DNA of 64,000 bases from Candidatus Nanopelagicales bacterium. GTDB taxonomy: Bacteria > Actinomycetota > Actinomycetes > S36-B12 > UBA10799. This document shows, piece after piece, positions 1 through 23,058 of this stretch; positions within the stretch are counted from its first letter, which is position 1, and each line of letters starts with the position of its first letter. The position numbers were made by a program, and so were the translations under genes. Location of the stretch: NCBI GenBank assembly GCA_018003655.1, contig JAGNDY010000002.1, positions 926 through 64,925 of the forward strand. The letters are read 5' to 3'. The notes beneath the pieces were generated by a model. That model had not been told where the DNA came from. It did not search any database and saw only the letters and a list, made by a program, of their open reading frames with translations.

Positions 1-702
1 GAGTGGACCCAGCGCTGGGGTCTACGCAGGTATGGATTCCATGGGCTGTCGCACGCCTATGCCAGTCGCCGTGGTGCGGAACTCGCGGGGCGCGACGTTG
101 CCGACGCTCGCATTGTCACCTGTCACCTCGGTGCCGGGGCCTCGCTGTGTGCGGTGCGAGACGGCGCCAGCGTCGACACAACGATGGGCTTCACGCCGCT
201 GGAAGGCCTGGTGATGGCAACGCGCAGCGGGTCGGTCGACCCGGGCATGGTGCTGTGGCTGCAGGAACACGCAGATCTGACCGTCGACGACCTTTCGGTC
301 GGCTTAACCCGCGAGGGCGGCTTGGCGGGGGTGTCCGGTGTCGGTGGTGACCTCCGTGATGTCAGTGACGCAGCGTCCGCCGGCTCCGACCGGGCGGGCC
401 TGGCGCTGGCGGTCTACGACCACAGCCTCGCGAGCCTCACCTCGGCGATGATCACGTCCTGCGGCGGTCTGGATGTCTTGGTCTTCACCGGCGGAGTCGG
501 CGAACACTCAGTCGAGCGCCGCGGGCAGCTGGTGGCTTCACTGGCGTACTTGGGCATCGAGCTAGACGATGCCGCCAACCGCGCGACGCAGTCCGACGGC
601 GTGATCAGCAGCACCGCGTCCAGTGCGGCTGTGGTCGTCGTGACAGCACGCGAGGATCTGCAAATTGCCAGCAGCGTTGAGCAGCTGTTGCTGAACGGCT
701 AG
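1..702 (+). CDS. ackA: acetate kinase, C-terminal part (5' end outside window)
   Basis: Frame 1 is open from nt 1. The translation ..YGFHGLSHAY..CHLGAGASLCAV..DTTMGFTPLEGLVMATRSG..VFTGGVGEHS carries acetate/propionate-kinase signature blocks. Stop TAG at 700-702. Confidence 0.9.
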   Translation, partial: EWTQRWGLRRYGFHGLSHAYASRRGAELAGRDVADARIVTCHLGAGASLCAVRDGASVDTTMGFTPLEGLVMATRSGSVDPGMVLWLQEHADLTVDDLSVGLTREGGLAGVSGVGGDLRDVSDAASAGSDRAGLALAVYDHSLASLTSAMITSCGGLDVLVFTGGVGEHSVERRGQLVASLAYLGIELDDAANRATQSDGVISSTASSAAVVVVTAREDLQIASSVEQLLLNG

Positions 703-1718
703 CCCTGTTCGTCGCTGCTTCGCTCGGACGAGTCGCTGACGCCCTCGGAATGCTTCGGTTTAATGACTGTTCCTGCGTGGGCAACGGCTGTCGGGTCCTG
801 CCGAGTCTTGATCAGGCTGGCAATCGCCGTGATCGTCAAAATCACCACGATGACCGCCAGCGAGGTCAGTGTCGGAATCTTGGGAACGCTCGCCCAGGTC
901 TCGTGTGCCCAGGTGAGAACCAGCTTGATGCCGATGAAGACCAGAATCACCGCAAGACCCAATGACAGGTAGACCAACCGATCCAGAAGGCCCTTGAGCA
1001 GGAAGAACAAGGCACGCAGCCCGAGCAGCGCAAACGCGTTCGCTGCGAACACCAAATACGGATCCTGGGTGACACCAAAGGTGGCCGGAATCGAATCGAG
1101 GGCGAACAGGAGATCGGTCGAGCCGACTGCGATGACGACGAGCAGCAATGGTGTTGCTGCTTTGACTCCGTCGATCTTGGTGAAGAACGCGGTGCCGTGA
1201 TAGTCGTCGGTGACCGTGAAGCGCTTACGCGCCAGCTTGGTCACCAAGTTCTCGGAGGGTTCGGGATCCTCATTGCGGTGTCGGGCCAACTGAATCCCGG
1301 TCCAGATCAGCAACGCACCGAAGATCACAAAGGTGAAGGAGAAGTACGCGAGCGCGGCCGCACCAACGGCAATAAAGATGGTGCGGAACACCAGCGCCAA
1401 GATGATCCCGAACAGCAGCACCCGCTGTTGCAGGGCGTCCGGAACCAGGAACTTAGCGAAGATGATGGCGAAGACGAACAAGTTGTCGACCGACAGGCTC
1501 TTCTCCACCAGGTACGCGGAAAAGAACTCGGTGCCAGCGGTCGTGCCTTGCCACCAGAAGATGACGATGCCGAACACCACCGCCACCGCGATGTAAAACA
1601 CCGACCACCAGGTCGCCTCTCGGATTCCGACGTGGTGTGGCTTGTGGCTTATCGCAAAATCGAGCGCGAGCAACCCGAGGATCACAACTACGGTGGCGAC
1701 CCAGATCCAGATGCTCAC
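699..1718 (-). CDS. TerC-family integral membrane protein
   Basis: 339-aa polytopic ORF with the TerC block [17 protein letters not shown]. Its GTG start overlaps the upstream stop (GTGA at 1715-1718). Confidence 0.85.
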   Translation of the reverse strand: MSIWIWVATVVVILGLLALDFAISHKPHHVGIREATWWSVFYIAVAVVFGIVIFWWQGTTAGTEFFSAYLVEKSLSVDNLFVFAIIFAKFLVPDALQQRVLLFGIILALVFRTIFIAVGAAALAYFSFTFVIFGALLIWTGIQLARHRNEDPEPSENLVTKLARKRFTVTDDYHGTAFFTKIDGVKAATPLLLVVIAVGSTDLLFALDSIPATFGVTQDPYLVFAANAFALLGLRALFFLLKGLLDRLVYLSLGLAVILVFIGIKLVLTWAHETWASVPKIPTLTSLAVIVVILTITAIASLIKTRQDPTAVAHAGTVIKPKHSEGVSDSSERSSDEQG

Positions 1719-2821
1719 GTCGAGTCTCCTTCGTCGTTGCGTTTGTCGAACTCATGCTCGCCTTGACTGTCCGTCGGCCTTGCCGGGTCAGACTCGGCAC
1801 CACCGAGGTGCCGTAGCCCCGAACCCGCGCCTCTGACGGGCCGCTCGGGGTGGGAGCCTGCTGCCGCCTTAGGCGCCATCGTTGGGTGGCGCTTCACTGC
1901 GACGATGGAAGTGATCGCGGTGACGGCAAGAATAGCGACAATGACTGCGAGCGATGTAAAGGCTCCTATCTGGGGCACGCTCAAGCTCGTCGTGCCGTGG
2001 AGGGCCTCCAGAATCAGCTTGACCGAGATGAAGCAGAGGATGAGCGCAAGACCCTTGTGCAGGTAGATCAAGCGATCGATGAGCCCGTTGAGCAGGAAGT
2101 AGAGCTGCCGCAGTCCCATCAGCGCAAAGGCGTTCACGGCAAAGACGATGTAACTCTCCTGCGTCAGACCGAAGACGGCTGGGATTGAGTCCAACGCAAA
2201 GAGCAGGTCGGTGGTCCCAATCGCCAGCACGACTAGGGCCATCGGAGTGATCACCCGATGACCAGCCACGCGGGTGATCATCTTGTGACCGTCGTAGTCG
2301 GGCGTGGACGGAAGCCGCTTCTCGGCAAACCGAACGATGGCGTTGCCGTCCGGGTCTGGCTCCTCGTCGCCGGAGAACCACACCTTCCAAGCGGTCCACA
2401 GCAGGAAGGCTCCGAAGATGAAGAAAACACCGATGAACGCCTCGATGATGGCGGCGCCGATGATGATGAGAATCGTCCGCAGCACCAACGCGATCAGGAT
2501 GCCGATCAGGAGAACCCGGTGCTGGAGTTCGGCCGGAACGGCGAAACTGGCGATGAGCACGACGAAGACGAACAGGTTGTCCACGCTCAGCGAATACTCG
2601 GTGACGTAGCCGGCAAAGAATTGGCCAGCGATCTCCGCACCCTGGACGTAGTAGACGCCAATTCCGAAGACGATTGCGGCGGCGATGTAGATGATCACCC
2701 AACGGGTCGCCTCGCGAACGGTGAAGGCGTGCGGGCTGGCGTCGACCAGGATGAGGTCAAGCGCGAAAACTAGGAGGACGCCCCCGATGGTGAGTGCCCA
2801 GACCCAGACGGGAACGTTCAC
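1715..2821 (-). CDS. TerC-family integral membrane protein (paralog)
   Basis: 368-aa polytopic ORF with the block [16 protein letters not shown]. Its GTG start overlaps the uvrB stop (GTGA at 2818-2821). Confidence 0.85.
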
Positions 2822-4947
2822 CCGTGGCCCGCCTCGCGCATCTGCCGCAGCTCTTTTTTGAGGTCCGAGATCTCGTCCCGGTAGCGACCAGCTAGCTCGA
2901 ACTGCAGCTCGGCCGCTGCCGCGTGCATTTGTTCGGTCAACCTGGTGATCAGGTCGACCAGATCACGAGCGGGCATGCCGTCGCGGTCAGCGACCGTGAC
3001 GCTCGTGGCGCTGTCGCTTGCCTTCGCCCGGGATCGCATGTCACCCCCGGCAACGCGACCGCGCGAGCGACTGCGTCCCGATCCCCCGAGCAACTCCTCG
3101 GTGTCAGCGTCTTCACGAGCGAGTAGGTCGGTGATGTCGGCGATCTTCTTGCGCAACGGCTGTGGGTCGACGCCGCGCTCCACGTTGTAGGCAGTCTGCT
3201 TGGCTCGGCGACGGTTGGTCTCATCGATTGCTTTGCGCATCGAATCGGTGATGGTGTCGGCATACATGTGAACCTCGCCGGAGACGTTTCGCGCGGCGCG
3301 ACCGATGGTCTGCACCAGGCTGCGTGCAGACCGCAGGAAACCCTCTTTGTCGGCGTCCAGGATCGCGACGAGGCTGACCTCGGGTAGATCCAGGCCCTCG
3401 CGAAGCAAGTTGATGCCGACGAGGACGTCGTAGAGTCCCTGCCGAAGTTCGCGCAGCAGTTCCACCCGGCGCAAGGTGTCCACCTCGCTGTGGAGGTAGC
3501 GGGCGCGTACTCCGTTCTCCAGCAGATAATCAGTGAGGTCCTCGGCCATTTTCTTGGTCAGCGTTGTGACGAGAACCCGCTCCTTGACGGCGACCCGCGT
3601 CTGGATCTCGTCGAGGAGGTCGTCGATTTGGCCCTTGGTTGGTTTGACGATGATCTCCGGGTCGAGCAGGCCAGTCGGTCGGATCACCTGCTCAACAACG
3701 TCGTTGTCGACCTTGGCCAGTTCATAGGGACCTGGGGTCGCGGACAGGTAGATCGTCTGGCCGATCCGGTCGACGAACTCCTCCCACCGCAGCGGCCGGT
3801 TGTCCATCGCGCTCGGCAGCCGGAACCCGTGGTCGACCAACATCCGCTTGCGCGACATGTCGCCCTCATACATGCCGCCAATCTGCGGCACCGTCACGTG
3901 CGACTCATCGATGACGAGCAGGAAGTCCTCGGGGAAGTAGTCGATCAGGCAGTTCGGTGCACTCCCCTGCTCGCGACCATCGATGTGACGCGAGTAGTTC
4001 TCGATACCGGAGCAGAAACCGACTTGCTGCATCATCTCAATGTCGTACTCGGTTCGCATGCGTAACCGCTGGGCTTCCAACAAGTGGTTGCCCTTCTCCA
4101 GCTCGGCCAGGCGACCTTCAAGCTCCGCTTCGATGGCGGTGATCGCGCGTTCCATCCGTTCCGGACCGGCGACGTAGTGCGAGGCGGGGAAGACGTAAAG
4201 CTCACTGTCCTCAGTCAGGATCTCGCCGGTCACCGGCTGCAGGGTCATCAGCCGTTCGACTTGGTCGCCGAAGAACTCAATGCGGACTGGATGCTCCTCG
4301 TACACCGGGAACACCTCGAGGGTGTCGCCACGAACTCGGAACGTGCCTCGAGTAAAGGCGAGGTCGTTGCGGCTGTATTGGATCTGTACCAGTCGACGCA
4401 AGATCGAATCGCGATCGTATTCTTCGCCGACACGAACCCGCACCATCCGATCGATGTACTCCTGCGGCGTCCCCAGACCGTAGATGGCACTGACGGTCGC
4501 GACCACGATGCAGTCCCGACGGGTGAGCAGCGCATTGGTCGCGGAGTGCCGAAGACGCTCGACCTCCTCGTTGATGGAGGAGTCCTTCTCGATGTAGGTA
4601 TCGGTCTGCGGGATGTAGGCCTCGGGTTGGTAGTAGTCGTAGTAGGAGACGAAGTACTCGACCGCGTTGTCAGGCATGAGTTCGCGGAATTCGTTGGCCA
4701 ACTGCGCCGCCAGCGTCTTGTTGGGCGCCATGACCAGCGTCGGGCGTTGGAGTTTCTCAACCAACCAAGCCGTGGTCGCGCTCTTGCCGGTTCCGGTGGC
4801 ACCTAGCAGCACGACGTTCTGGTCATCCGCCTCGATCCGGCGGGCGATCTCCGCGATTGCCGCTGGCTGGTCGCCGGCCGGTTCGTACTCGCTAATCACC
4901 CGAAACGGGGCAACGGTTCGTTGAAGGTCGGTAACGGGCCTCGCCAT
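2818..4947 (-). CDS. uvrB: excinuclease ABC subunit B
   Basis: 709 aa with Walker [11 protein letters not shown], helicase blocks ([15 protein letters not shown]) and a C-terminal UVR motif ([17 protein letters not shown]). Confidence 0.97.
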
Positions 4948-5020
4948 GGCCCAACGCTACCCCGCCAGCCCGGCCGTGCCCCACGCCGTTGGCTCGACAA
5001 CGTCCGCTGTGGCCCGGGGC

Positions 5021-5115
5021 CGCTCACCCCTATTCCACTTTGCTACCGGTACACGCCGTGTGGCGTCCCTTTCACAGCCGCCTACCGGCGTGTGCCGGTT
5101 GCAAAGTCGGGTGGG
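5021..5115. repeat. palindromic repeat element, copy 1
   Basis: The arm 5035-5058 (CCACTTTGCTACCGGTACACGCCG) pairs with 5086-5110, with one bulge, one mismatch and one G-U. The flank CGCTCACCCCT at 5021-5031 reappears reverse-complemented next to copy 2. Confidence 0.6.
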
Positions 5116-5201
5116 TTGTTGCTGCAACGCTGACCGTGACGGTTTCCACAGCTGAGAGATGGGCGGCAGCTGGCACCACACATTCGCTGGACGCTGTTGT
5201 G

Positions 5202-6203
5202 ATGCCCTCAGATGCCGCCGCTTTCGCAACCACCGACCTGCTGATCGACCTATTTGGCGGCTTGCCATTCCGCGGGCGCGACGCGCAGCTTCGAGGTGTG
5301 CGAAGGAAGCGGCTTGACGCAGCCGCAACCATTGGGCTGTTGGGCCGAATCAGTCGAGACGTCTACGTGGTCAAGCAGCTCACAGACGGTGGGGACGACG
5401 ACCAACTCCACGAACGGGCGCTCGCGATTCAGTTGGCGATCCCGGGGGCGGTCATCAGCCACGAATCCGCGGCTCGTTTGCACGGCCTGGACTTCCGGAG
5501 ACGTTGGCGCCGCAGGCACGAAGGAGATCTTGTGACTGCGACGGTCCCGGGAGGGAGCCATCTCGCGCGCGACGGATACCGCACGGTTTCGGCGCGGGTT
5601 CCGCAGCAGCAACGCGTCACCATCGACGGGATTGTGACGACGGGCCCGGCACGGACCGCAGTTGATCTTGCCAGACAGTCAAATTTGGGCGATGGCCTTG
5701 CCGTCTGCGACTCCGCGATGCGCAAGCTCGTGCTTCGTGCCGCGTTGACCATGAAACTCGACGATCGTGTGGCAGTTCACCGAGATGACCTCCGGACGCG
5801 GGCACGGGAAAGCCTCGAACTCGTAGCCAGAGACATGCCCAGGTGGCCGGGCATTCGCCCTGCCCGGCGAGCAATTCTGGAGGCCGACCCGGCGTCCGAG
5901 TCACCACTTGAGTCCGCTTCCCGTGCGGTGGCGATCACTGCGGGTCTCCCGGCGCCGAAGGTCGGGTGGCCCATAACGCTACCCAACGGGCGCACGGTTT
6001 GGGGTGACCTCGTTTGGCTTGAGGAGCGTGTTGTCGGCGAGGCCGACGGCGCGTTGAAGTACACGTCGCGAGATGACCTCATGCGCGAGAAGCTGCGCGA
6101 GGACGCATTGAGGTCCTGCGGCTGGACGGTCGTTCGTTGGACCTGGAACGAAGCAGTCGTGGAGCCCCATCTCCTCGTCCGCAAACTCCACCGGGTGCTT
6201 TAG
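5202..6203 (+). CDS. AbiEi-like N-terminal domain / DUF559-type (PD-(D/E)xK-like) endonuclease-domain protein
   Basis: The central block AVISHESAARLHGL..TTGPARTAVDLAR and the C-terminal block GDLVWLEERVVGEADGALKY..GWTVVRWTW resemble this common actinobacterial family (from memory). The first ATG after the palindrome was chosen as start, because the ORF-track start at 4989 reads through the repeat. Confidence 0.6.
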   Translation: MPSDAAAFATTDLLIDLFGGLPFRGRDAQLRGVRRKRLDAAATIGLLGRISRDVYVVKQLTDGGDDDQLHERALAIQLAIPGAVISHESAARLHGLDFRRRWRRRHEGDLVTATVPGGSHLARDGYRTVSARVPQQQRVTIDGIVTTGPARTAVDLARQSNLGDGLAVCDSAMRKLVLRAALTMKLDDRVAVHRDDLRTRARESLELVARDMPRWPGIRPARRAILEADPASESPLESASRAVAITAGLPAPKVGWPITLPNGRTVWGDLVWLEERVVGEADGALKYTSRDDLMREKLREDALRSCGWTVVRWTWNEAVVEPHLLVRKLHRVL

Positions 6204-6250
6204 CAGCCGGGTAGCGCTCATCGCAGCCGATGCGTGCCGACGTGACCCCA

Positions 6251-6339
6251 CCACCTTGCTACCGCAACACACCGGAACGGAGCGAGTTCAACCCCAGTCG
6301 CCGGTGTGTTGCGGTAGCAAAGTGGAGCAGGGGTGAGCG
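6251..6339. repeat. palindromic repeat element, copy 2 (inverted relative to copy 1)
   Basis: 25-nt arms at 6251-6275 and 6301-6325 are complementary with one mismatch and enclose a 25-nt loop. AGGGGTGAGCG at 6329-6339 is the reverse complement of the copy-1 flank. Confidence 0.65.
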
Positions 6340-6417
6340 GGCGAGGACCACCCGACGGGCGTGGGTGGAGGTAGCGTGGCGCGGGTGCGGAGGCTTGGAG
6401 CGCAGGAGTGCGAGGCG

Positions 6418-7800
6418 ATGGCCGAGGCGGCCGCTGGTCACTTGCACGCCGCCCACACCGCTCAGGTGATGACCGGTGACCGGATCGCGATCGTGGTGCC
6501 AGCCGAGGGAACGCCGCACGAGGAAGCTGCTGAGATCCAGGCACACGTCCTCGGGCTGGTCATGGGTGCTTTGCGAAGCGGGATCATCCCGGTGATGGTG
6601 AATCCCGCTCTGCCGCCAGAGGCTCGCGAGCAGATAATCGCCGATGCCGAAGTGTCGTTGGTGATCGACGACGCGGACTCCCTCTTCACACTCACGAGCA
6701 CCCGGACAGACACCCCACCGGCTGAGCTTGCACCGATACCACTCGGTCGACCGATGCACTACACGTCCGGAACGACGGGACGATCGAAGGGGGTCTGGAG
6801 TGGAATCTGGGACGAGCAGACCGCCACCACGGCTTGGGCAGATGAACAGCAACAGTGGGTGTTCACTGGTCAGGATGTGACCCTGGTTCACGGCCCGCTC
6901 GCCCACAGCGGGCCCCTGCGGTTCGCCATGCTGGTGCTACTCGCGGGTGGCACCGTGTTGCTGCCCGGAGCTTTTGACGCCCAGCGCATCGCGGACTGCC
7001 TCGTCGAGGACAGGCCCACGCACGCGTTCGTCGTGCCCAGCCATATCCAACGGTTGATGGCCTTGCCGGGCGGACCGCCACCGTCCCCGTACCGCCTACT
7101 GACCCACGCTGGCGCGGCGTGCCCGGCCCCGCTCAAACAGCAGATTCACGACTGGGCCGGAGTCGACCGAACGTGGGAGTTCTACGGCTCCACCGAAGGC
7201 CAGTTCACCGCATGCAGCGGTCGTGAGTGGGAACAACGCCCAGGAACGGTCGGTCGGGCTCGCGCCGGACGAACGCTCACGATTCGCGATGGCGTCATCT
7301 GGTGCCAAGTTCCGCGATGGTTCACGTTCGAGTATTGGAACGACCCCGAGAAGACCTTGAGGGCCTGGCACACCAACGACCAGGGTGGTCGTGAGTTCTC
7401 CGTCGGTGACCTCGGTCGCCTCGACCAGGACGGCTACCTGTGGCTCGTCGGCCGCCGCGACGACCTCATCATCACCGGTGGTGTCAACGTGTACCCCGCG
7501 CAAGTCGAAGACGTCCTCTTGGCACATCCGTCCGTCAGCGAGGTCGCAGTGTTTGGGATCGAGGATGAGCAGTGGGGTCAGCGCGTTTGTGCGGCCCTCG
7601 TCCTCCACGAGGACCCCGCCGCGAGGAGCATGGAGACAGCGGCGACCGAAACCGTGTTGCGATCCATCACCAACCACGCAGCAGGGCATCTGGCCGGGTA
7701 CCAACGGCCAAAGAGCTACTACCCGACGAGCGATCTGCCCCGCACTGAGTCGGGCAAGGTGCGCCGCACCGAACTACCGGAGTTCCTCGGCCTCGGTTAG
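6418..7800 (+). CDS. AMP-dependent synthetase/ligase (acyl-CoA synthetase family)
   Basis: Contains the AMP-binding motif MHYTSGTTGRSKGV, then GDLGRLDQDGYLWLVGRRDDLI and a C-terminal SGKVRR. The start is ambiguous (GTG 6361, ATG 6418 or ATG 6469). Confidence 0.8.
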   Translation: MAEAAAGHLHAAHTAQVMTGDRIAIVVPAEGTPHEEAAEIQAHVLGLVMGALRSGIIPVMVNPALPPEAREQIIADAEVSLVIDDADSLFTLTSTRTDTPPAELAPIPLGRPMHYTSGTTGRSKGVWSGIWDEQTATTAWADEQQQWVFTGQDVTLVHGPLAHSGPLRFAMLVLLAGGTVLLPGAFDAQRIADCLVEDRPTHAFVVPSHIQRLMALPGGPPPSPYRLLTHAGAACPAPLKQQIHDWAGVDRTWEFYGSTEGQFTACSGREWEQRPGTVGRARAGRTLTIRDGVIWCQVPRWFTFEYWNDPEKTLRAWHTNDQGGREFSVGDLGRLDQDGYLWLVGRRDDLIITGGVNVYPAQVEDVLLAHPSVSEVAVFGIEDEQWGQRVCAALVLHEDPAARSMETAATETVLRSITNHAAGHLAGYQRPKSYYPTSDLPRTESGKVRRTELPEFLGLG

Positions 7801-19641: not shown

Positions 19642-21450
19642 TCATGACCCAAATACCTGCACCGGGTTTCCGTACACCACTTTGTTCAGGCAGACAGCGT
19701 CTTTCGGGCTGGGCACGGAGAAATCCAAGTCCCCACCGAAGGCGCCAACCGAGGCATAGACGTCGTTCCACTGGTTGGCTTTGACGGGGATGTCCGTCGG
19801 TGCCGAACCCACGTTCACGGTCAAGACGGTGTCCGTCTTGGAGTAGTACTGCAGATAGACGACTCGCCAGAAGTTGAATGGCGTCGGGGTGATTGGAATC
19901 CTCGCCGTGTCGTCTACAAGCGTCCCGCAACCCGGTGACAAGCCCGTCGGAAGCTCCGGACCGTCGACTATTCCGGGCTTGAGGTGCCCGTCCGCTGCAA
20001 CGACGGTCAACTTCTCGCTCCACGTCGCCCAGTGAGGCTGGCGAGGATAGATCTTGAACATTGACTCCTGCGTATTGAAAGGCAACGGGGCGACCACCAA
20101 CCCGAAGGCAGCCGGTGGGGAACTGTTGAAGACTTGCGCCTGTGGGTTCGCAGCAAGGTCAGCCTGCAGATTGTCGGAGAAGCTACGCCCGGGGTTCACA
20201 CTGAAGATGTCGCGATAGGCCGCTGCGGACACCAGCGTGCTGACGCTGAACAGCGCCACGCAGCAGCCGACAGCAACCGGATTCCCCAGGTATCGCCGCA
20301 GAGTCAGGGCTGCGGGATTTGATCGTCGCTCGCTCGCCGGGTCAATTCTCAGTCCGAAGAACGCGACTGCCAGCGTGCACGCCAGCAACGGTGCACCATC
20401 AGCGAAGTGACGGAATGTGTGGGTGACGCCCCAGCCCACCGTCGAGACTCGGCCAACTACCAGCGGGACGGTGGCAATCCCGACGAAGACAAACCACGGC
20501 AGCCAGACACGCAACCGCCGCCGACGCAGCATGGCTGAAATGACGACCAAACCGATAAGCAGGATGATCGAGAGGGCCGTCATGAACACGGGGGCGTTGC
20601 CATCCGCGTTCACATTCCCAAAAGCAAACCACCGCCAAGGCCCACCGGCGAGGATCCACCCGATTGTCTGGGTGTAGGTCCCGGCAAACGATCTGCCAGC
20701 GTCGACCAATGCAGGTGGTCGCAGAGGCTCCTGCGAAATGAAGGCAAACGCGGTGACGTACACAACGCCCAGCACCGCGAAGGCCGCCCATAGCCGCCGG
20801 TAGCTCCGCAAGGTGACGGTCAGTGAGTCAATAAACCCACCTCGGACGAACCAACCTGCGGTGATCAAGAACAGGATGAACGGAATCAGGACTGCCTTTT
20901 CAAGGAACAGCAGACCCGCGACTACCGAGAGGAAGGCTCCCAGCCAGGCTGTGTTCGAGTTCGTTCTCAGCAACTTCACCTGGAAGAAGATCGCCAGACC
21001 ACCGAAAAGCCAGACAGGAATGACGGTCACGGCGACGACGATCCAAGTTGAGCTTGGGTAGGACAGTGCCGAAAGCATTGGCACTAGCAAGGCAACAACC
21101 GCCAGCGGACGCGGACCCACCAGACTCCGCAGCGCTAGCCAAGTGGTGACGCCGGCACCGGCGAGCAGCAGCGAGGCAAGAACAACCATTGGTAGCCAAG
21201 GAGTGCCACCCCCGATGGCGACGCCGAACCCGAACAGCAGAAGGGTCGCGGGCTGAAGGTGACCGCCATACGCCTCGAACATCCGCGCTGGGTTGACTCC
21301 TTCATTGGCGATCCGACTGAGCATGACCCAGTCGTCAGACCAGAAATACCCTCGCACGCCCACATAGATGGAGACAACGACCGCCGCAACTACAACGACT
21401 GCAGCAAGCCAATCGGCGAGCTGCAGTCGTTGTAGTTGGCGTCGAACCAC
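19642..21450 (-). CDS. polytopic membrane protein, putative GT-C-fold glycosyltransferase
   Basis: 602 aa. The first loop carries YFWSDDW, a GT-C-like acidic motif. About 10 TM helices are followed by a ~200-aa C-terminal soluble domain. The assignment rests on architecture only. Confidence 0.55.
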   Translation of the reverse strand: MVRRQLQRLQLADWLAAVVVVAAVVVSIYVGVRGYFWSDDWVMLSRIANEGVNPARMFEAYGGHLQPATLLLFGFGVAIGGGTPWLPMVVLASLLLAGAGVTTWLALRSLVGPRPLAVVALLVPMLSALSYPSSTWIVVAVTVIPVWLFGGLAIFFQVKLLRTNSNTAWLGAFLSVVAGLLFLEKAVLIPFILFLITAGWFVRGGFIDSLTVTLRSYRRLWAAFAVLGVVYVTAFAFISQEPLRPPALVDAGRSFAGTYTQTIGWILAGGPWRWFAFGNVNADGNAPVFMTALSIILLIGLVVISAMLRRRRLRVWLPWFVFVGIATVPLVVGRVSTVGWGVTHTFRHFADGAPLLACTLAVAFFGLRIDPASERRSNPAALTLRRYLGNPVAVGCCVALFSVSTLVSAAAYRDIFSVNPGRSFSDNLQADLAANPQAQVFNSSPPAAFGLVVAPLPFNTQESMFKIYPRQPHWATWSEKLTVVAADGHLKPGIVDGPELPTGLSPGCGTLVDDTARIPITPTPFNFWRVVYLQYYSKTDTVLTVNVGSAPTDIPVKANQWNDVYASVGAFGGDLDFSVPSPKDAVCLNKVVYGNPVQVFGS

Positions 21451-21459
21451 GATTGATGG

Positions 21460-22938
21460 CTACTCGGCGCCGGAGAGTTTGTCGCGAAGCGCCTGGAGCG
21501 CCTCGTTGGCATCGCTGTCCAGCGCACCAGCAGCAGCGGCCTCGGACTTGTCTGAGGAGAAGCTGCTCGCGCCCTCGGCAGTGGTTTCGGCGGCCTCGGC
21601 ATCGGCCTTCTTAGCCTCGCCGATCTGCGTCTTGTGCTGTTCCCAGCGCGCGTACGCGTCGTTGTACTGGCGTTCCCATTCGGTCCGCTGGTCTTCGAAG
21701 CCCTCTTTCCACTCACCGGTGTTGGGGTCGAAGCCTTCCGGCCCGATGTAGGCGCCGGCCTCGTCGTAGGAGGCGGGCATGCCGTAGAGGTACGGATCGA
21801 ACTCGTCTACTGTCTCGGTTCCGCTGTCGTTGGCCTGCTTGAGTGACAACGAGATACGGCGGCGCTCGAGGTCGATGTCGATCACCTTGACGAAGATCTC
21901 GTCATCAACGGTGACGACCTGCTCTGGCATTTCAACGTGGCGCTCAGCCAGCTCGGAGATGTGCACCAGACCCTCGATGCCGTCGTCGACGCGGACGAAG
22001 GCGCCGAACGGCACCAACTTGGTCACCCGACCGGGGACAACCTGGCCGGTTGCGTGGGTTCGAGCGAACTGCTGCCACGGATCTTCCTGGGTGGCCTTGA
22101 GTGACAGCGAGACGCGCTCGCGGTCCATGTCCACGTCGAGAACCTCGACGGTGACTTCCTGGCCCACCTCGACAACCTCGGACGGGTGATCGATGTGCTT
22201 CCAGGACAGTTCGGAGACGTGCACCAGACCGTCGACGCCACCGAGGTCCACGAAGGCACCGAAGTTGACGATGGAGCTGACGACGCCGCTGCGGACCTGG
22301 CCCTTTTGAAGCTCGTTGAGGAAGTCGTGGCGAACCTGCGACTGGGTCTGCTCAAGCCATGCGCGACGCGAAAGGACGACGTTATTGCGATTCTTGTCCA
22401 GCTCGATGATCTTCGCTTCGATCTCGTCACCGACATATGGCTGCAAGTCGCGCACGCGACGCATCTCGACGAGGGAAGCTGGCAGGAACCCACGGAGGCC
22501 GATATCGAGGATTAGTCCACCCTTGACCACCTCGATGACAGTGCCCTTGACGACTCCGTCGGCTTCCTTGATTGCCTCAATATCGCCCCAAGCGCGCTCG
22601 TACTGCGCGCGTTTCTTGGACAGGATCAGCCGACCGTCTTTGTCTTCCTTCTGGAGAACGAGTGCCTCGACCTCGTCGCCCACGGAAACGACCTCGCTGG
22701 GGTCAACGTCGTGTTTGATCGATAGTTCTCGGCTCGGAATGACACCCTCGGTCTTGTAACCGATGTCGAGTAGGACCTCGTCCCGGTCGACTTTAACGAT
22801 GGTGCCTTCGACAATGTCACCATCGTTGAAGTACTTGATGGTCTCGTCGATAGCGGCTAGTAGGGCTGCCTCGTCGCCAATGTCGTTGATGGCGATGGAT
22901 GGGATCTCGTGGGCAGCGGTGACGTCAGTTGCGGTCAT
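21460..22938 (-). CDS. rpsA: 30S ribosomal protein S1
   Basis: 492 aa with repeated S1 domains (GTIVKVDRDEVLLDIGYKTEGVIP, GTVIEVVKGGLILDIGLRGFLP and others). Confidence 0.97.
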   Translation of the reverse strand: MTATDVTAAHEIPSIAINDIGDEAALLAAIDETIKYFNDGDIVEGTIVKVDRDEVLLDIGYKTEGVIPSRELSIKHDVDPSEVVSVGDEVEALVLQKEDKDGRLILSKKRAQYERAWGDIEAIKEADGVVKGTVIEVVKGGLILDIGLRGFLPASLVEMRRVRDLQPYVGDEIEAKIIELDKNRNNVVLSRRAWLEQTQSQVRHDFLNELQKGQVRSGVVSSIVNFGAFVDLGGVDGLVHVSELSWKHIDHPSEVVEVGQEVTVEVLDVDMDRERVSLSLKATQEDPWQQFARTHATGQVVPGRVTKLVPFGAFVRVDDGIEGLVHISELAERHVEMPEQVVTVDDEIFVKVIDIDLERRRISLSLKQANDSGTETVDEFDPYLYGMPASYDEAGAYIGPEGFDPNTGEWKEGFEDQRTEWERQYNDAYARWEQHKTQIGEAKKADAEAAETTAEGASSFSSDKSEAAAAGALDSDANEALQALRDKLSGAE

Positions 22939-23002
22939 GGAGGAAAGGACTCCGGGATGGACATGAATCTCGTTGCGGAAAGTGGACAGTTGAAGGCTAC
23001 CT

Positions 23003-23041
23003 GACGAGGGGCGGCCCGGGAATCCCGGACCGCCCCTCGTC
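23003..23041. terminator. strong GC-rich hairpin (candidate terminator of the DUF3068 gene, in the rpsA upstream region)
   Basis: An 18-position stem (17 bp plus one C-A mismatch) at 23003-23020 / 23024-23041 with a 3-nt loop AAT. It lies 18 nt downstream of the stop at 23059-23061 on the minus strand. There is no clear U-tract. Confidence 0.45.
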
Positions 23042-23058
23042 AGACTTCGTGCAGTTGC

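What the first reader, a model, noticed from the sequence alone, without database searches (positions are those of the whole stretch)
5021..6339. AbiEi/DUF559-type gene bracketed by inverted copies of a ~90-nt palindromic element between uvrB and an acyl-CoA ligase
Seen: copy 1 (5021-5115) and copy 2 (6251-6339) each form a ~25-bp imperfect hairpin with a 25-27-nt loop. Copy 1 matches the reverse complement of copy 2 over about 40 nt (CGCTCACCCCT[AT/GC]TCCACTTTGCTACCG..ACAC.CCG). The two copies are therefore in inverted orientation and flank the single gene at 5202-6203. Copy 1 sits 74 nt upstream of the uvrB start, and copy 2 ends 22 nt before the first candidate start of the ligase. Established: DUF559/AbiEi-like proteins are multi-copy accessory genes in actinobacteria, and REP- or MITE-like palindromes can mobilise or insulate genes. 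Inference: there are three possibilities. The gene may be a cassette delimited by terminal inverted palindromes (MITE-like or recombination-site-like). The palindromes may be insulators or terminators protecting uvrB and the ligase from cassette transcription. Or they may be binding sites for the encoded HTH/nuclease protein itself.
Basis: partly seen in the sequence, partly recalled or inferred. Interest (0 to 1): 0.55.

Follow-up and report, generated by a model that had tools for sequence, protein, structure and literature searches.

The report
Nuclease gene bracketed by matching palindromes
A small gene for a DNA-binding nuclease sits between two matching DNA hairpins. The same hairpin-gene-hairpin layout, with a DnaA-box-like motif in front of the gene, recurs in most sampled members of a very large actinobacterial gene family, so it looks like a self-contained and probably selfish genetic module that I could not find described.

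Summary
Two ~87-90-nt palindromes (5029-5115 and 6245-6334) bracket one gene (5202-6203), and their outer edges extend into a 50-nt inverted repeat (5009-5058 / 6302-6351).

The gene encodes an AbiEi-type wHTH fused to a Vsr-like PD-(D/E)XK nuclease. It has no AbiEii partner.

The layout is a family trait, not a local accident.
- In 44 of 78 loci sampled from metagenomes, MAGs and Tsukamurella, the gene's two flanks resemble each other above the 99th percentile of a cross-locus null.
- Each lineage has its own palindrome sequence.
- Strong palindromes are about 40-fold denser in these flanks than elsewhere.
- Between related loci, third codon positions are near saturation (0.40-0.55 identity) while the palindromes keep 0.72-0.96 identity.
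- A relative with an 81%-identical ligase has uvrB next to the ligase with no gene and no hairpin.

A motif matching the DnaA box, TT(A/G)TCCACA, lies between the upstream palindrome and the start codon. It is 231-fold enriched there.

I found no target-site duplications, no recent transposition, and no extra copies in the window.

Best reading: an autonomous, probably selfish nuclease cassette whose palindromes are its cognate cis sites. The mechanism is inferred, not shown. I found no published description.

The parts
5009..6351 (+). Whole module as delimited by the outermost inverted repeat (1343 bp): upstream palindrome, promoter region with a DnaA-box-like motif, nuclease gene, downstream palindrome.
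   Evidence: Inverted repeat 5009-5058 / 6302-6351, 50 nt at 82%. The empty-site relatives L127/L128 align confidently only outside 4962-6403.
5029..5115 (.). Upstream palindrome (U). Core arms are 5037-5065 / 5079-5107. It carries the outer-stem motif CCACTTTGC and a C-run/G-run at the stem base.
   Evidence: MFE -65.7 kcal/mol, z = -5.1. The motif class CCACTT / ACTTTG is enriched in family flanks.
5142..5150 (+). DnaA-box-like motif GTTTCCACA, within GGTTTCCACAGCT. It lies 52-60 nt upstream of the start codon, between U and the gene. It differs at 2 positions from the consensus TT(A/G)TCCACA.
   Evidence: The family consensus is GTT(A/G)TCCACAG(A)T. Perfect boxes are 231-fold enriched in this zone. 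The DnaA-box consensus comes from PMC4285127, Table 1.
5202..6203 (+). Gene of 333 aa. Residues ~20-190 form an AbiEi-type wHTH plus AbiEi C-terminal domain, followed by a helical linker. Residues ~250-333 form a Vsr-like PD-(D/E)XK nuclease, with D269, E280, D282 and K286 in the motif GEADGxxKY.
   Evidence: Pfam. PADLOC AbiEi, E = 1e-10. Alignment A1 for the conserved residues. AlphaFold2 model, pLDDT 92.3. Foldseek matches: 6y8q AbiEi, 3r3p I-Bth0305I (TM 0.76), 1vsr.
6245..6334 (.). Downstream palindrome (D). Core arms are 6251-6275 / 6301-6325 with a 25-nt loop. It starts 42 nt after the stop codon.
   Evidence: z = -5.5 on the + strand, -7.5 on the - strand.
2818..4947 (-). uvrB, the left neighbour. 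It is not part of the module.
   Evidence: Pfam UvrB_inter, UvrB and UVR.
6361..7800 (+). AMP-binding acyl-CoA ligase, the right neighbour. It is not part of the module. The start conserved with the relative L127 is ATG 6418; MAG annotations use 6376 or 6385.
   Evidence: Pfam.

Best explanation
Segment 5009-6351 is one member of a very large, chromosomal, mostly actinobacterial family of single-gene modules. The layout is: palindrome, DnaA-box-like promoter motif, wHTH-nuclease gene, palindrome.

**What the palindromes are.** They are cognate cis-acting sites of the encoded protein, and they mark the ends of the unit.

**Proposed working (inferred).**
1. The AbiEi-type wHTH binds repeated half-sites in both palindromes. 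Binding at the upstream copy represses the gene, as AbiEi does at its own operator. Binding at both copies bridges the two ends.
2. The Vsr-like nuclease domain nicks or cuts at or near these sites, perhaps when they extrude as hairpins or cruciforms. This triggers recombinational repair.
3. Repair keeps the two copies alike and internally symmetrical, flips loops and whole cassettes, and occasionally copies the cassette into a new or solo site. This is homing-like, with no transposase chemistry.
4. The DnaA-box-like motif would tie expression, or local DNA opening, to replication initiation.

**Shown:** the architecture and its spread across the family; co-evolution of each pair; purifying selection on the hairpin sequence; excess compensatory change; presence or absence as a unit; intact catalytic residues; enrichment of the DnaA-box motif.

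**Inferred:** who binds the sites, where cleavage occurs, and any mobility mechanism.
For: **1. Family-wide pairing.**
- 35 of 62 loci have upstream/downstream flank similarity above the 99th percentile of a cross-locus null. With wider flanks and extra loci it is 44 of 78.
- Elements are ~65-90 nt. The upstream copy ends 0-110 nt before the estimated start in most loci. The downstream copy begins between -19 and +50 nt from the stop in most loci.

**2. Palindromicity.** 32 of 35 positive loci have at least one flank element palindromic above the 99% null. Strong palindromes occur at 1.65-1.66 per kb in the flank zones, 0.04 per kb elsewhere, and 0 inside the genes.

**3. Lineage specificity.** Hairpin sequences cluster only with their own partner or with related loci. 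The three Tsukamurella paralogs each have a different pair.

**4. Selection.** Between related loci, third-codon-position identity is 0.40-0.55 while hairpin identity is 0.72-0.96. For L020/L035 the figures are 0.48 against 0.91-0.96.

**5. Symmetry is kept.** Comparing U and D stems, 60 of 886 paired positions changed on both sides (about 25 expected), and 36 of those keep pairing (about 11 expected).

**6. Sub-family A3.** Its palindrome is built from 4 copies of CACTTCGCG. The invariant columns fall on that motif, as expected for protein half-sites. Unrelated hairpins share C(C)ACTT(C/T)G.

**7. Unit behaviour.**
- The nearest homologs lie in unrelated contexts: murB/aminotransferase, corA/metallophosphatase, DUF202.
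- L127/L128 (ligase 81% identical) have uvrB, then 131 nt, then the ligase, with no gene and no significant structure.
- Solo copies of two Tsukamurella repeat types lie in other intergenic regions.
- The same neighbour gene abuts opposite cassette ends in L061 and L065.

**8. Protein.** It has an AbiEi fold and a Vsr / I-Bth0305I-like nuclease fold. D269, E280, D282 and K286 are conserved in at least 90% of 31 diverse members.

**9. DnaA box.** 21 perfect TT[AG]TCCACA in 19 of 75 upstream zones, against 3 in 368 kb elsewhere. None of the TCCACA hits in the downstream zones is in this context.
Against: - There is no direct evidence of movement. Identical or related cassettes sit in the same context wherever I could check (15 contigs of P0015; 10 same-species contigs).
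- There is no target-site duplication signal.
- There are no extra copies of this hairpin in the 64-kb window.
- The family is essentially absent from phages and true plasmids.
- Vsr-like PD-(D/E)XK nucleases are not known to carry out strand transfer.
- About 44% of sampled loci show no recognisable pair.
- Within the source species, 5 of 9 variable sites fall in the hairpins and some weaken pairing.
- I could not test whether the wHTH binds the palindromes.
- The single empty site is too diverged (81% protein identity) to give exact junctions.
Confidence: 0.5

Rival explanations
1. A purely regulatory, resident gene. The protein is a chromosomal defence or repair nuclease kept under tight control. 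U is an AbiEi-type operator for autorepression. D is a second operator (a repression loop around the gene) and/or a T-tract-less terminator. There is no mobility, and different contexts reflect ancient paralogy and horizontal transfer.
For: - AbiEi proteins autoregulate through paired inverted repeats (knowledge of the AbiE family; fold match).
- Positions are stable across diverged genomes.
- The pair co-evolves with the protein.
- Sub-family A3 shows four conserved half-sites.
- There is no TSD and there are no multi-copy cassettes.
Against: - It does not explain solo copies elsewhere in Tsukamurella.
- It does not explain the opposite cassette orientation next to the same neighbour gene, or the hairpins being absent together with the gene at the empty site.
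- Stop codons overlap the D element and the packing is tight and IS-like.
- The excess of symmetric changes that differ between U and D argues against recognition by one protein being the only constraint.
Confidence: 0.3
2. A REP/RAYT-like relationship. The gene is a domesticated, single-copy enzyme whose job is to spread or maintain a genome-wide family of these palindromes. The two flanking copies are simply the ones next to the enzyme gene.
For: - The layout matches RAYT genes flanked by REPs.
- In Tsukamurella, the repeat flanking one paralog has about 6 solo copies in 4 other intergenic regions, and another type has 2-3.
Against: - There are no solo copies in the 64-kb window or in about 290 kb of flanks of about 80 loci.
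- Copy numbers are very low where solos are seen.
- The enzyme is not a HUH/Y1 transposase.
- The genome-contig scan gave only chance-level hits (33 found, about 35 expected by my estimate), none next to a homolog. The source species did not appear in that scan, so its whole genome could not be searched.
Confidence: 0.1
3. Incidental structures. The palindromes are ordinary intergenic terminators or host repeats, kept alike by gene conversion between two nearby copies, and have no function tied to the gene.
For: - Long hairpins without T-tracts are common terminators in high-GC actinobacteria (general knowledge).
- The two copies are only ~1.1 kb apart.
- Population SNPs are concentrated in the hairpins.
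Against: - Gene conversion within a locus cannot keep hairpins 0.72-0.96 identical between genomes whose third codon positions are near saturation.
- Strong palindromes are about 40-fold enriched at this family's flanks.
- Ordinary terminator palindromes flanking another gene in the same window (21387-21438 and 23001-23043) are unrelated to each other.
- U lies upstream of the presumed promoter of its own gene.
Confidence: 0.05
4. RNA-level elements. Matching 5' and 3' hairpins in the mRNA control its stability or translation, or are bound by the protein as RNA.
For: - Both fold strongly as RNA.
- Compensatory changes preserve pairing.
Against: - The conserved promoter-like / DnaA-box motif lies downstream of U, so U is probably not in the transcript.
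- Relative orientation of U and D is random, and loops and motif sequences are conserved, which a purely structural RNA role would not predict.
- There is no Rfam match beyond generic hairpin noise.
Confidence: 0.05

Closest known systems
REP elements with their RAYT (REP-associated tyrosine transposase) genes
   Same: A single-copy, vertically stable enzyme gene is flanked by two copies of a short palindrome specific to that gene's lineage. Solo copies can occur elsewhere in the genome, as seen in Tsukamurella.
   Different: The enzyme is a wHTH plus Vsr-like PD-(D/E)XK nuclease, not a HUH/Y1 transposase. Solo copies are few or absent rather than tens to hundreds. Relative orientation of the two copies is random. 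A DnaA-box-like motif is part of the unit.
IS200/IS605-family insertion sequences
   Same: Compact ~1.2-1.3-kb units with an imperfect palindrome near each end, no target-site duplication, and tight packing of the ORF against the right-end hairpin.
   Different: There is no TnpA or TnpB. There is no multi-copy distribution and no sign of recent transposition. The hairpins are longer (about 25-35 bp stems with loops up to about 30 nt) and are not strand-consistent.
AbiE type IV toxin-antitoxin systems (AbiEi antitoxin with operator inverted repeats)
   Same: The N-terminal two-thirds has the AbiEi fold and sequence signature. Paired inverted repeats lie upstream of the gene, as in AbiEi operators.
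   Different: There is no AbiEii nucleotidyltransferase partner. Instead AbiEi is fused to a nuclease. A second copy of the 'operator' lies downstream of the gene.
Free-standing homing endonuclease genes of the Vsr-like / EDxHD type (I-Bth0305I)
   Same: The catalytic domain fold matches (TM 0.76 to 3r3p). It is a solitary nuclease gene inserted between housekeeping genes, present in one lineage and absent from a related one at the same site.
   Different: It is not inside an intron or intein. It is bounded by matched palindromes. No target site is known, and it is stable at the same locus across deep divergence.
Integron gene cassettes with attC sites
   Same: A single ORF is associated with an imperfect palindrome of 60-140 nt whose structure matters more than its sequence across cassettes.
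   Different: There is no integrase and no array. There are two matched palindromes per gene. The shared outer motif is C(C)ACTT(C/T)G, not the attC core GTTRRRY. The cassette appears to carry its own promoter region.

Membership tests
DUF559 / Vsr-like PD-(D/E)XK nuclease | Pfam PF04480 match above the gathering score, and a Vsr-like fold | tested here: met
   PF04480 scores 21.6 bits against a cut-off of 20.6. The PDB sequence hit is 3hrl, an endonuclease-like protein. Foldseek finds 3r3p (TM 0.76) and 1vsr (probability 0.97).
DUF559 / Vsr-like PD-(D/E)XK nuclease | Conserved acidic and lysine catalytic residues | tested here: met
   D269 is invariant. E280, D282 and K286 are conserved in at least 90% of 31 diverse members, and all are present in the window protein. 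Catalytic activity itself is not testable here.
AbiE type IV toxin-antitoxin system | AbiEi antitoxin domains (wHTH plus C-terminal domain) | tested here: met
   PF09407 scores 23.3 against 22.2. PADLOC AbiEi has E = 1e-10 over residues 26-185. Foldseek finds 6y8q with probability 1.0.
AbiE type IV toxin-antitoxin system | Adjacent AbiEii (DUF1814 nucleotidyltransferase) toxin gene in a two-gene operon | tested here: not met
   The neighbours are uvrB and an AMP-binding ligase. None of the related loci shows an adjacent partner gene.
REP / RAYT | HUH/Y1 transposase encoded between the repeats | tested here: not met
   Pfam, PADLOC and the structure search show AbiEi plus a Vsr-like nuclease only.
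REP / RAYT | Many dispersed copies of the palindrome in the same genome | tested here: inconclusive
   There are no extra copies in the 64-kb window or in the flanks of about 80 loci. Two Tsukamurella repeat types have 2-6 solo copies. The whole source genome could not be searched; the source species did not appear in the genome-contig scan.
IS200/IS605 | TnpA (Y1) and/or TnpB gene | tested here: not met
IS200/IS605 | Multiple near-identical copies in different contexts | tested here: not met
   Identical proteins always occur in one context. Related cassettes share flanks.
MITE / classical TIR transposon | Target-site duplication directly outside the terminal repeats | tested here: not met
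   The longest shared word between outer flanks averages 4.72, against a null of 4.67.
Integron cassette (attC) | Integron integrase, a cassette array, and the attC core GTTRRRY | tested here: not met
   No integrase or array appears in any locus gene table. The enriched outer motif is CCACTT / CACTTC. I did not scan explicitly for the attC core.
Intrinsic (Rho-independent) terminator | GC-rich stem followed by a T/U tract | tested here: not met
   The consensus scan finds no terminator-like site at either palindrome. T-tract-less 'I-shaped' terminators cannot be excluded with these tools.
DnaA box | 9-mer TT(A/G)TCCACA | tested here: inconclusive
   The family consensus equals the box, and perfect boxes are 231-fold enriched upstream of the gene. 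The window copy, GTTTCCACA, has 2 mismatches. Binding by DnaA is not testable here.
Known RNA families (Rfam 15) | Covariance-model match at the gathering score | tested here: not met
   Only a tRNA is found in the window. At E <= 1 there are only generic miRNA-precursor hairpin hits.

The most novel reading that the evidence does not exclude
The AbiEi-wHTH / Vsr-like nuclease genes, with their matched flanking palindromes and DnaA box, form a previously unrecognised class of autonomous chromosomal selfish element.

The protein would recognise its own palindromes and nick or cut them, possibly when they are extruded as hairpins during DnaA-linked opening or replication. Host repair would then propagate the element by copying hairpin-gene-hairpin into solo or naive sites. 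This would need no transposase or integrase chemistry.

The family is very large: at least 8,800 clusters at 50% identity.
Probability: 0.3. Interest if true: 0.85.

Novelty: new variant of a known kind. Interest (0 to 1): 0.68.

Why it matters
DUF559 and 'AbiEi domain-containing' proteins are among the commonest unexplained solitary genes in actinobacterial genomes. This sub-family alone has 8,803 clusters at 50% identity with E <= 1e-30. They are annotated as orphan antitoxins.

Most sampled members carry a conserved, selected cis architecture: two cognate palindromes plus a DnaA-box-like motif. That gives the family a concrete hypothesis to test: a DNA-binding nuclease acting on its own boundary sites, possibly coupled to replication initiation.

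If the module is mobile or homing, it would add a nuclease-driven, hairpin-bounded element to the list of bacterial selfish DNA. It would also offer a natural source of sequence-specific wHTH-nuclease and site pairs.

If it is purely regulatory, it would be an unusual case of a gene enclosed by matching operators.

Either way, the palindromes affect neighbouring genes. Here the module sits in the shared promoter region between uvrB and the ligase.

Tried and rejected
1. **Whole-collection pattern scan for the hairpin** (TTGCWACCG-N40-55-CGGTWGCAARGT in genome contigs). It returned 33 single hits in unrelated taxa. By my estimate about 35 are expected by chance. None lies next to a homolog, and the source species did not appear. 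The scan says nothing about solo copies in the source genome.
2. **MFE-based hairpin test on the flanks**. It did not discriminate in high-GC DNA, because gene-internal windows fold equally well. I replaced it with flank-to-flank similarity and self-complementarity scores.
3. **Exact insertion junctions from L127/L128**. Only the coding flanks align confidently, and the intergenic DNA is too diverged.
4. **Same-species presence/absence.** The ligase look-up found no record. Both uvrB contigs carry the cassette.
5. **Recent mobility through a multi-contig member, P0015**. All contigs have the same context.
6. **Target-site duplications**. None found.
7. **Phages and plasmids**. The family is essentially absent. 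The plasmid hits are chromosome pieces or chromids.
8. **Rfam** and **NCBIfam**. Nothing found.
9. **Literature**. I found no description of the architecture. The library is incomplete, so this is weak evidence of novelty.
10. **attC / integron, MITE, ubiquitous REP and chance.** I considered and rejected all four; see the membership table.
Full report
**1. The observation**

The sequence shows two strong palindromes.
- Copy 2 has 25-nt arms (6251-6275 / 6301-6325) that are 96% complementary, with a 25-nt loop.
- Copy 1 has arms 5037-5065 / 5079-5107 that are 83% complementary.
- With bulges the stems extend to 5029-5115 and 6245-6334. Folding energies lie 4-7.5 SD below shuffles on either strand.
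- The outer edges of the two elements form a 50-nt, 82% inverted repeat (5009-5058 / 6302-6351).
- The core CCACYTTGCTACCG occurs only in these arms, apart from one 2-mismatch hit elsewhere: 5 matches against 0.64 expected in 64 kb.

The gene between them (5202-6203, 333 aa) matches AbiEi_1 and DUF559 just above Pfam's cut-offs. The neighbours are uvrB (2818-4947, - strand) and an AMP-binding ligase, then coaE.

**2. The protein**

- PADLOC models place an AbiEi domain at residues ~20-190.
- An AlphaFold2 model built on a 31-sequence alignment is confident (pLDDT 92.3).
- Its N-terminal part matches the S. agalactiae AbiEi structure 6y8q. Its C-terminal ~85 residues match the catalytic domain of the homing endonuclease I-Bth0305I (3r3p, target-normalised TM 0.76) and E. 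coli Vsr.
- D269, E280, D282 and K286 (GEADGxxKY) are invariant or nearly so across members only 30-45% identical. The nuclease is therefore probably active.
- No AbiEii partner gene is present here or in any related locus.
- The family is very large: 8,803 representatives of 50%-identity clusters at E <= 1e-30, and 31,143 at 1e-10.
- It is essentially absent from phage records. The 'plasmid' hits are chromosome pieces or very large replicons.

**3. The palindromes are a family trait**

Ten contigs with the identical protein are the same species (over 99.6% identity) and add nothing.

The nearest homologs (40-45% identity) lie in unrelated contexts: murB/aminotransferase, corA/metallophosphatase, and DUF202 with an unannotated neighbour. 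Each is bracketed by its own pair of mutually similar palindromes.

I fetched 80 more loci from metagenomes and compared each gene's upstream flank with its downstream flank.
- 35 of 62 usable loci exceed the 99th percentile of a null made by pairing flanks from different loci.
- With wider flanks and four extra loci, 44 of 78 exceed it.
- Elements are ~65-90 nt. In most loci the upstream copy ends 0-110 nt before the estimated start, and the downstream copy begins between -19 and +50 nt from the stop, sometimes overlapping it.
- 32 of 35 positive loci have at least one clearly palindromic element.
- Strong palindromes occur at 1.65 and 1.66 per kb in the two flank zones, 0.04 per kb in 289 kb of other DNA, and not at all inside the genes.
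- The three paralogs of the cultured Tsukamurella tyrosinosolvens NCTC13231 each carry a different flanking pair. So does P0015.

As a contrast, another gene in this window (21460-22938, - strand) is flanked by two strong palindromes that are unrelated to each other, as ordinary terminators would be.

**4. How the pairs evolve**

- Hairpin sequences cluster only with their partner or with related loci.
- Between related loci, third codon positions are near saturation (0.40-0.55 identity). The hairpins keep 0.72-0.96 identity, comparable to first and second codon positions. For L020/L035 the figures are 0.48 against 0.91-0.96. This is purifying selection on the sequence. Conversion within a locus cannot produce it.
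- Comparing U with D, paired stem positions changed on both sides 60 times in 886 pairs (about 25 expected from the single-side rate). Of these, 36 keep pairing (about 11 expected). Internal symmetry is therefore also maintained. The window pair shows three such changes.
- In one sub-family the palindrome is built from four copies of CACTTCGCG (two direct, then two inverted) about 20 nt apart. The invariant columns fall on the motif. This looks like an array of protein half-sites.
- Otherwise unalignable hairpins share C(C)ACTT(C/T)G in the outer stem and C-runs/G-runs at the base.
- The relative orientation of U and D, judged from the loops, is direct in about half the loci and inverted in the other half. 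The related loci L020 and L035 differ in it. The inverted orientation seen in the window is therefore not a defining feature.

**5. Unit behaviour**

- Contigs L127/L128 encode a ligase 81% identical to the window's. They have uvrB's ATG, 131 nt with no significant structure, and then the ligase. There is no gene and no hairpin.
- At the same spot, a 61%-identity relative has a PIN/PhdYeFM pair, and another relative has an unrelated 508-aa ORF. This intergenic region therefore collects accessory genes.
- In Tsukamurella, the repeat flanking one paralog also occurs as about 6 solo copies in four other intergenic regions. Another type has 2-3 solo copies. None is next to a family gene, and the solo copies of the first type that I checked carry no gene remnant and no DnaA box.
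- L046 has two tandem downstream copies.
- In L061 and L065 the same neighbour gene abuts opposite ends of the cassette.

Against mobility:
- Related cassettes otherwise share their flanks.
- One protein found on 15 contigs always has the same neighbours.
- There is no target-site duplication signal.

**6. A second conserved element**

Between U and the start codon, and not in that form downstream, lies (G)TT(A/G)TCCACAG(A)T, in either orientation, in roughly half the loci.
- Perfect TT[AG]TCCACA occurs 21 times in 19 of 75 upstream zones, against 3 times in 368 kb elsewhere. That is 231-fold enrichment.
- It is present, sometimes doubled, in Tsukamurella.
- This 9-mer is the high-affinity DnaA box of E. 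coli and B. subtilis (TTATCCACA) and of M. tuberculosis and S. coelicolor (TTGTCCACA) (PMC4285127, Table 1).
- The window has the variant GTTTCCACA at 5142-5150.
- Whether DnaA, RNA polymerase or the encoded wHTH reads it is unknown. Its position suggests overlap with the promoter, which would place U outside the transcript.

**7. Interpretation**

The palindromes are functional, gene-specific cis elements that bound a compact module.

The best-supported model (confidence 0.5) is an autonomous, probably selfish nuclease cassette. Its wHTH binds both palindromes, giving autoregulation and end bridging. Its nuclease acts there to provoke repair-based homogenisation, inversion and occasional copying.

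The main rival (0.3) is a resident, tightly autoregulated nuclease gene enclosed by two operators, the downstream one perhaps doubling as a terminator.

REP/RAYT-like dispersal (0.1), incidental terminators (0.05) and RNA-level hairpins (0.05) fit less well.

**8. Comparison and novelty**

The layout works like REP/RAYT or IS200/IS605 ends, but it fails their defining test, which is a Y1 transposase. It contains AbiEi but is not an AbiE toxin-antitoxin pair. Its nuclease fold matches a homing endonuclease, but no target site or homing event is known.

Searches of the held literature found no description of this architecture. Rfam has no model for it. I therefore rate it a new variant of a known kind: enzyme genes bounded by cognate repeats. 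There is a real chance that it is a new class of element.

Noticed in passing
window 5142-5150 (GTTTCCACA, within GGTTTCCACAGCT); L011 ~4973-4986; many loci among L014-L093; L131 2742 and 2762; L132 2775 and 2793: A conserved motif, (G)TT(A/G)TCCACAG(A)T, lies between the upstream palindrome and the start codon. It equals the DnaA-box consensus, occurs in either orientation, is sometimes doubled, and does not occur in that form downstream. It is 231-fold enriched. It is also present in many loci that lack a recognisable palindrome pair.
   Followed up: partly
L130 4277-4929; L129 2176-3702; L127 372-502: The uvrB-ligase intergenic spot holds different accessory content in relatives. One has a PIN/PhdYeFM toxin-antitoxin pair (in the MAG that carries another family member at corA, L012), one has an unrelated 508-aa ORF, and one has nothing (131 nt). 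It looks like a hot spot for selfish genes.
   Followed up: partly
L046 942-1020 and 1079-1150, compared with L063 1162-1232: One locus has two tandem copies of the downstream palindrome where its relative has one.
   Followed up: partly
L061 3034-4333 compared with L065 149-1450: The same neighbour gene (83% nt identity) abuts the 3' end of the cassette in one contig and the 5' end in the other. The opposite flanks are unrelated. This is either a rearrangement with a breakpoint at the palindrome or an independent insertion in the opposite orientation.
   Followed up: partly
window 5066, 6240, 6256, 6278, 6305 (compared with L001-L010): Among 10 same-species contigs, 5 of the 9 variable sites in 4948-6360 fall in the ~220 nt of palindrome and only 1 falls in the 1002-nt gene. 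Some of them weaken pairing. This could be hairpin hypermutability, conversion, or assembly error at palindromes.
   Followed up: no
window 21387-21438 and 23001-23043: Two strong short-loop palindromes flank a 492-aa gene on the - strand (21460-22938). The gene has internal ~258-nt repeats and may be rpsA, which I did not check. The two palindromes are unrelated to each other, as ordinary terminators would be, so they serve as a contrast to the finding.
   Followed up: partly
L133 2501-2710; L134 2454-2620; L135 2501-2620; L136 2479-2621; L141 2501-2569; L142 2501-2541: Tsukamurella tyrosinosolvens has a low-copy set of dispersed intergenic repeats identical in type to those flanking two of its three family genes. 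The copies of the first type that I checked carry no gene remnant and no DnaA box.
   Followed up: partly
PLSDB records NZ_LR134451/52/54/61/63/65/66/69: The records for T. tyrosinosolvens NCTC13231 labelled 'plasmid 9...27' carry core housekeeping genes (secA, mtrAB, rpmG, hadAB, map). They are evidently chromosome fragments labelled as plasmids. The 11.85-Mb Nonomuraea record is likewise chromosome-sized.
   Followed up: no
alignment A3 (L063, L046, L059, L040, L033, L024 hairpins): In this sub-family the palindrome consists of four ~12-nt motif copies (CACTTCGCGTTA twice, then its complement twice) at ~20-nt spacing, about two helical turns. The spacers between them are variable.
   Followed up: partly
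window 699-1718 and 1715-2821: Two tandem TerC-family membrane protein genes with overlapping stop and start codons lie immediately downstream of uvrB.
   Followed up: no
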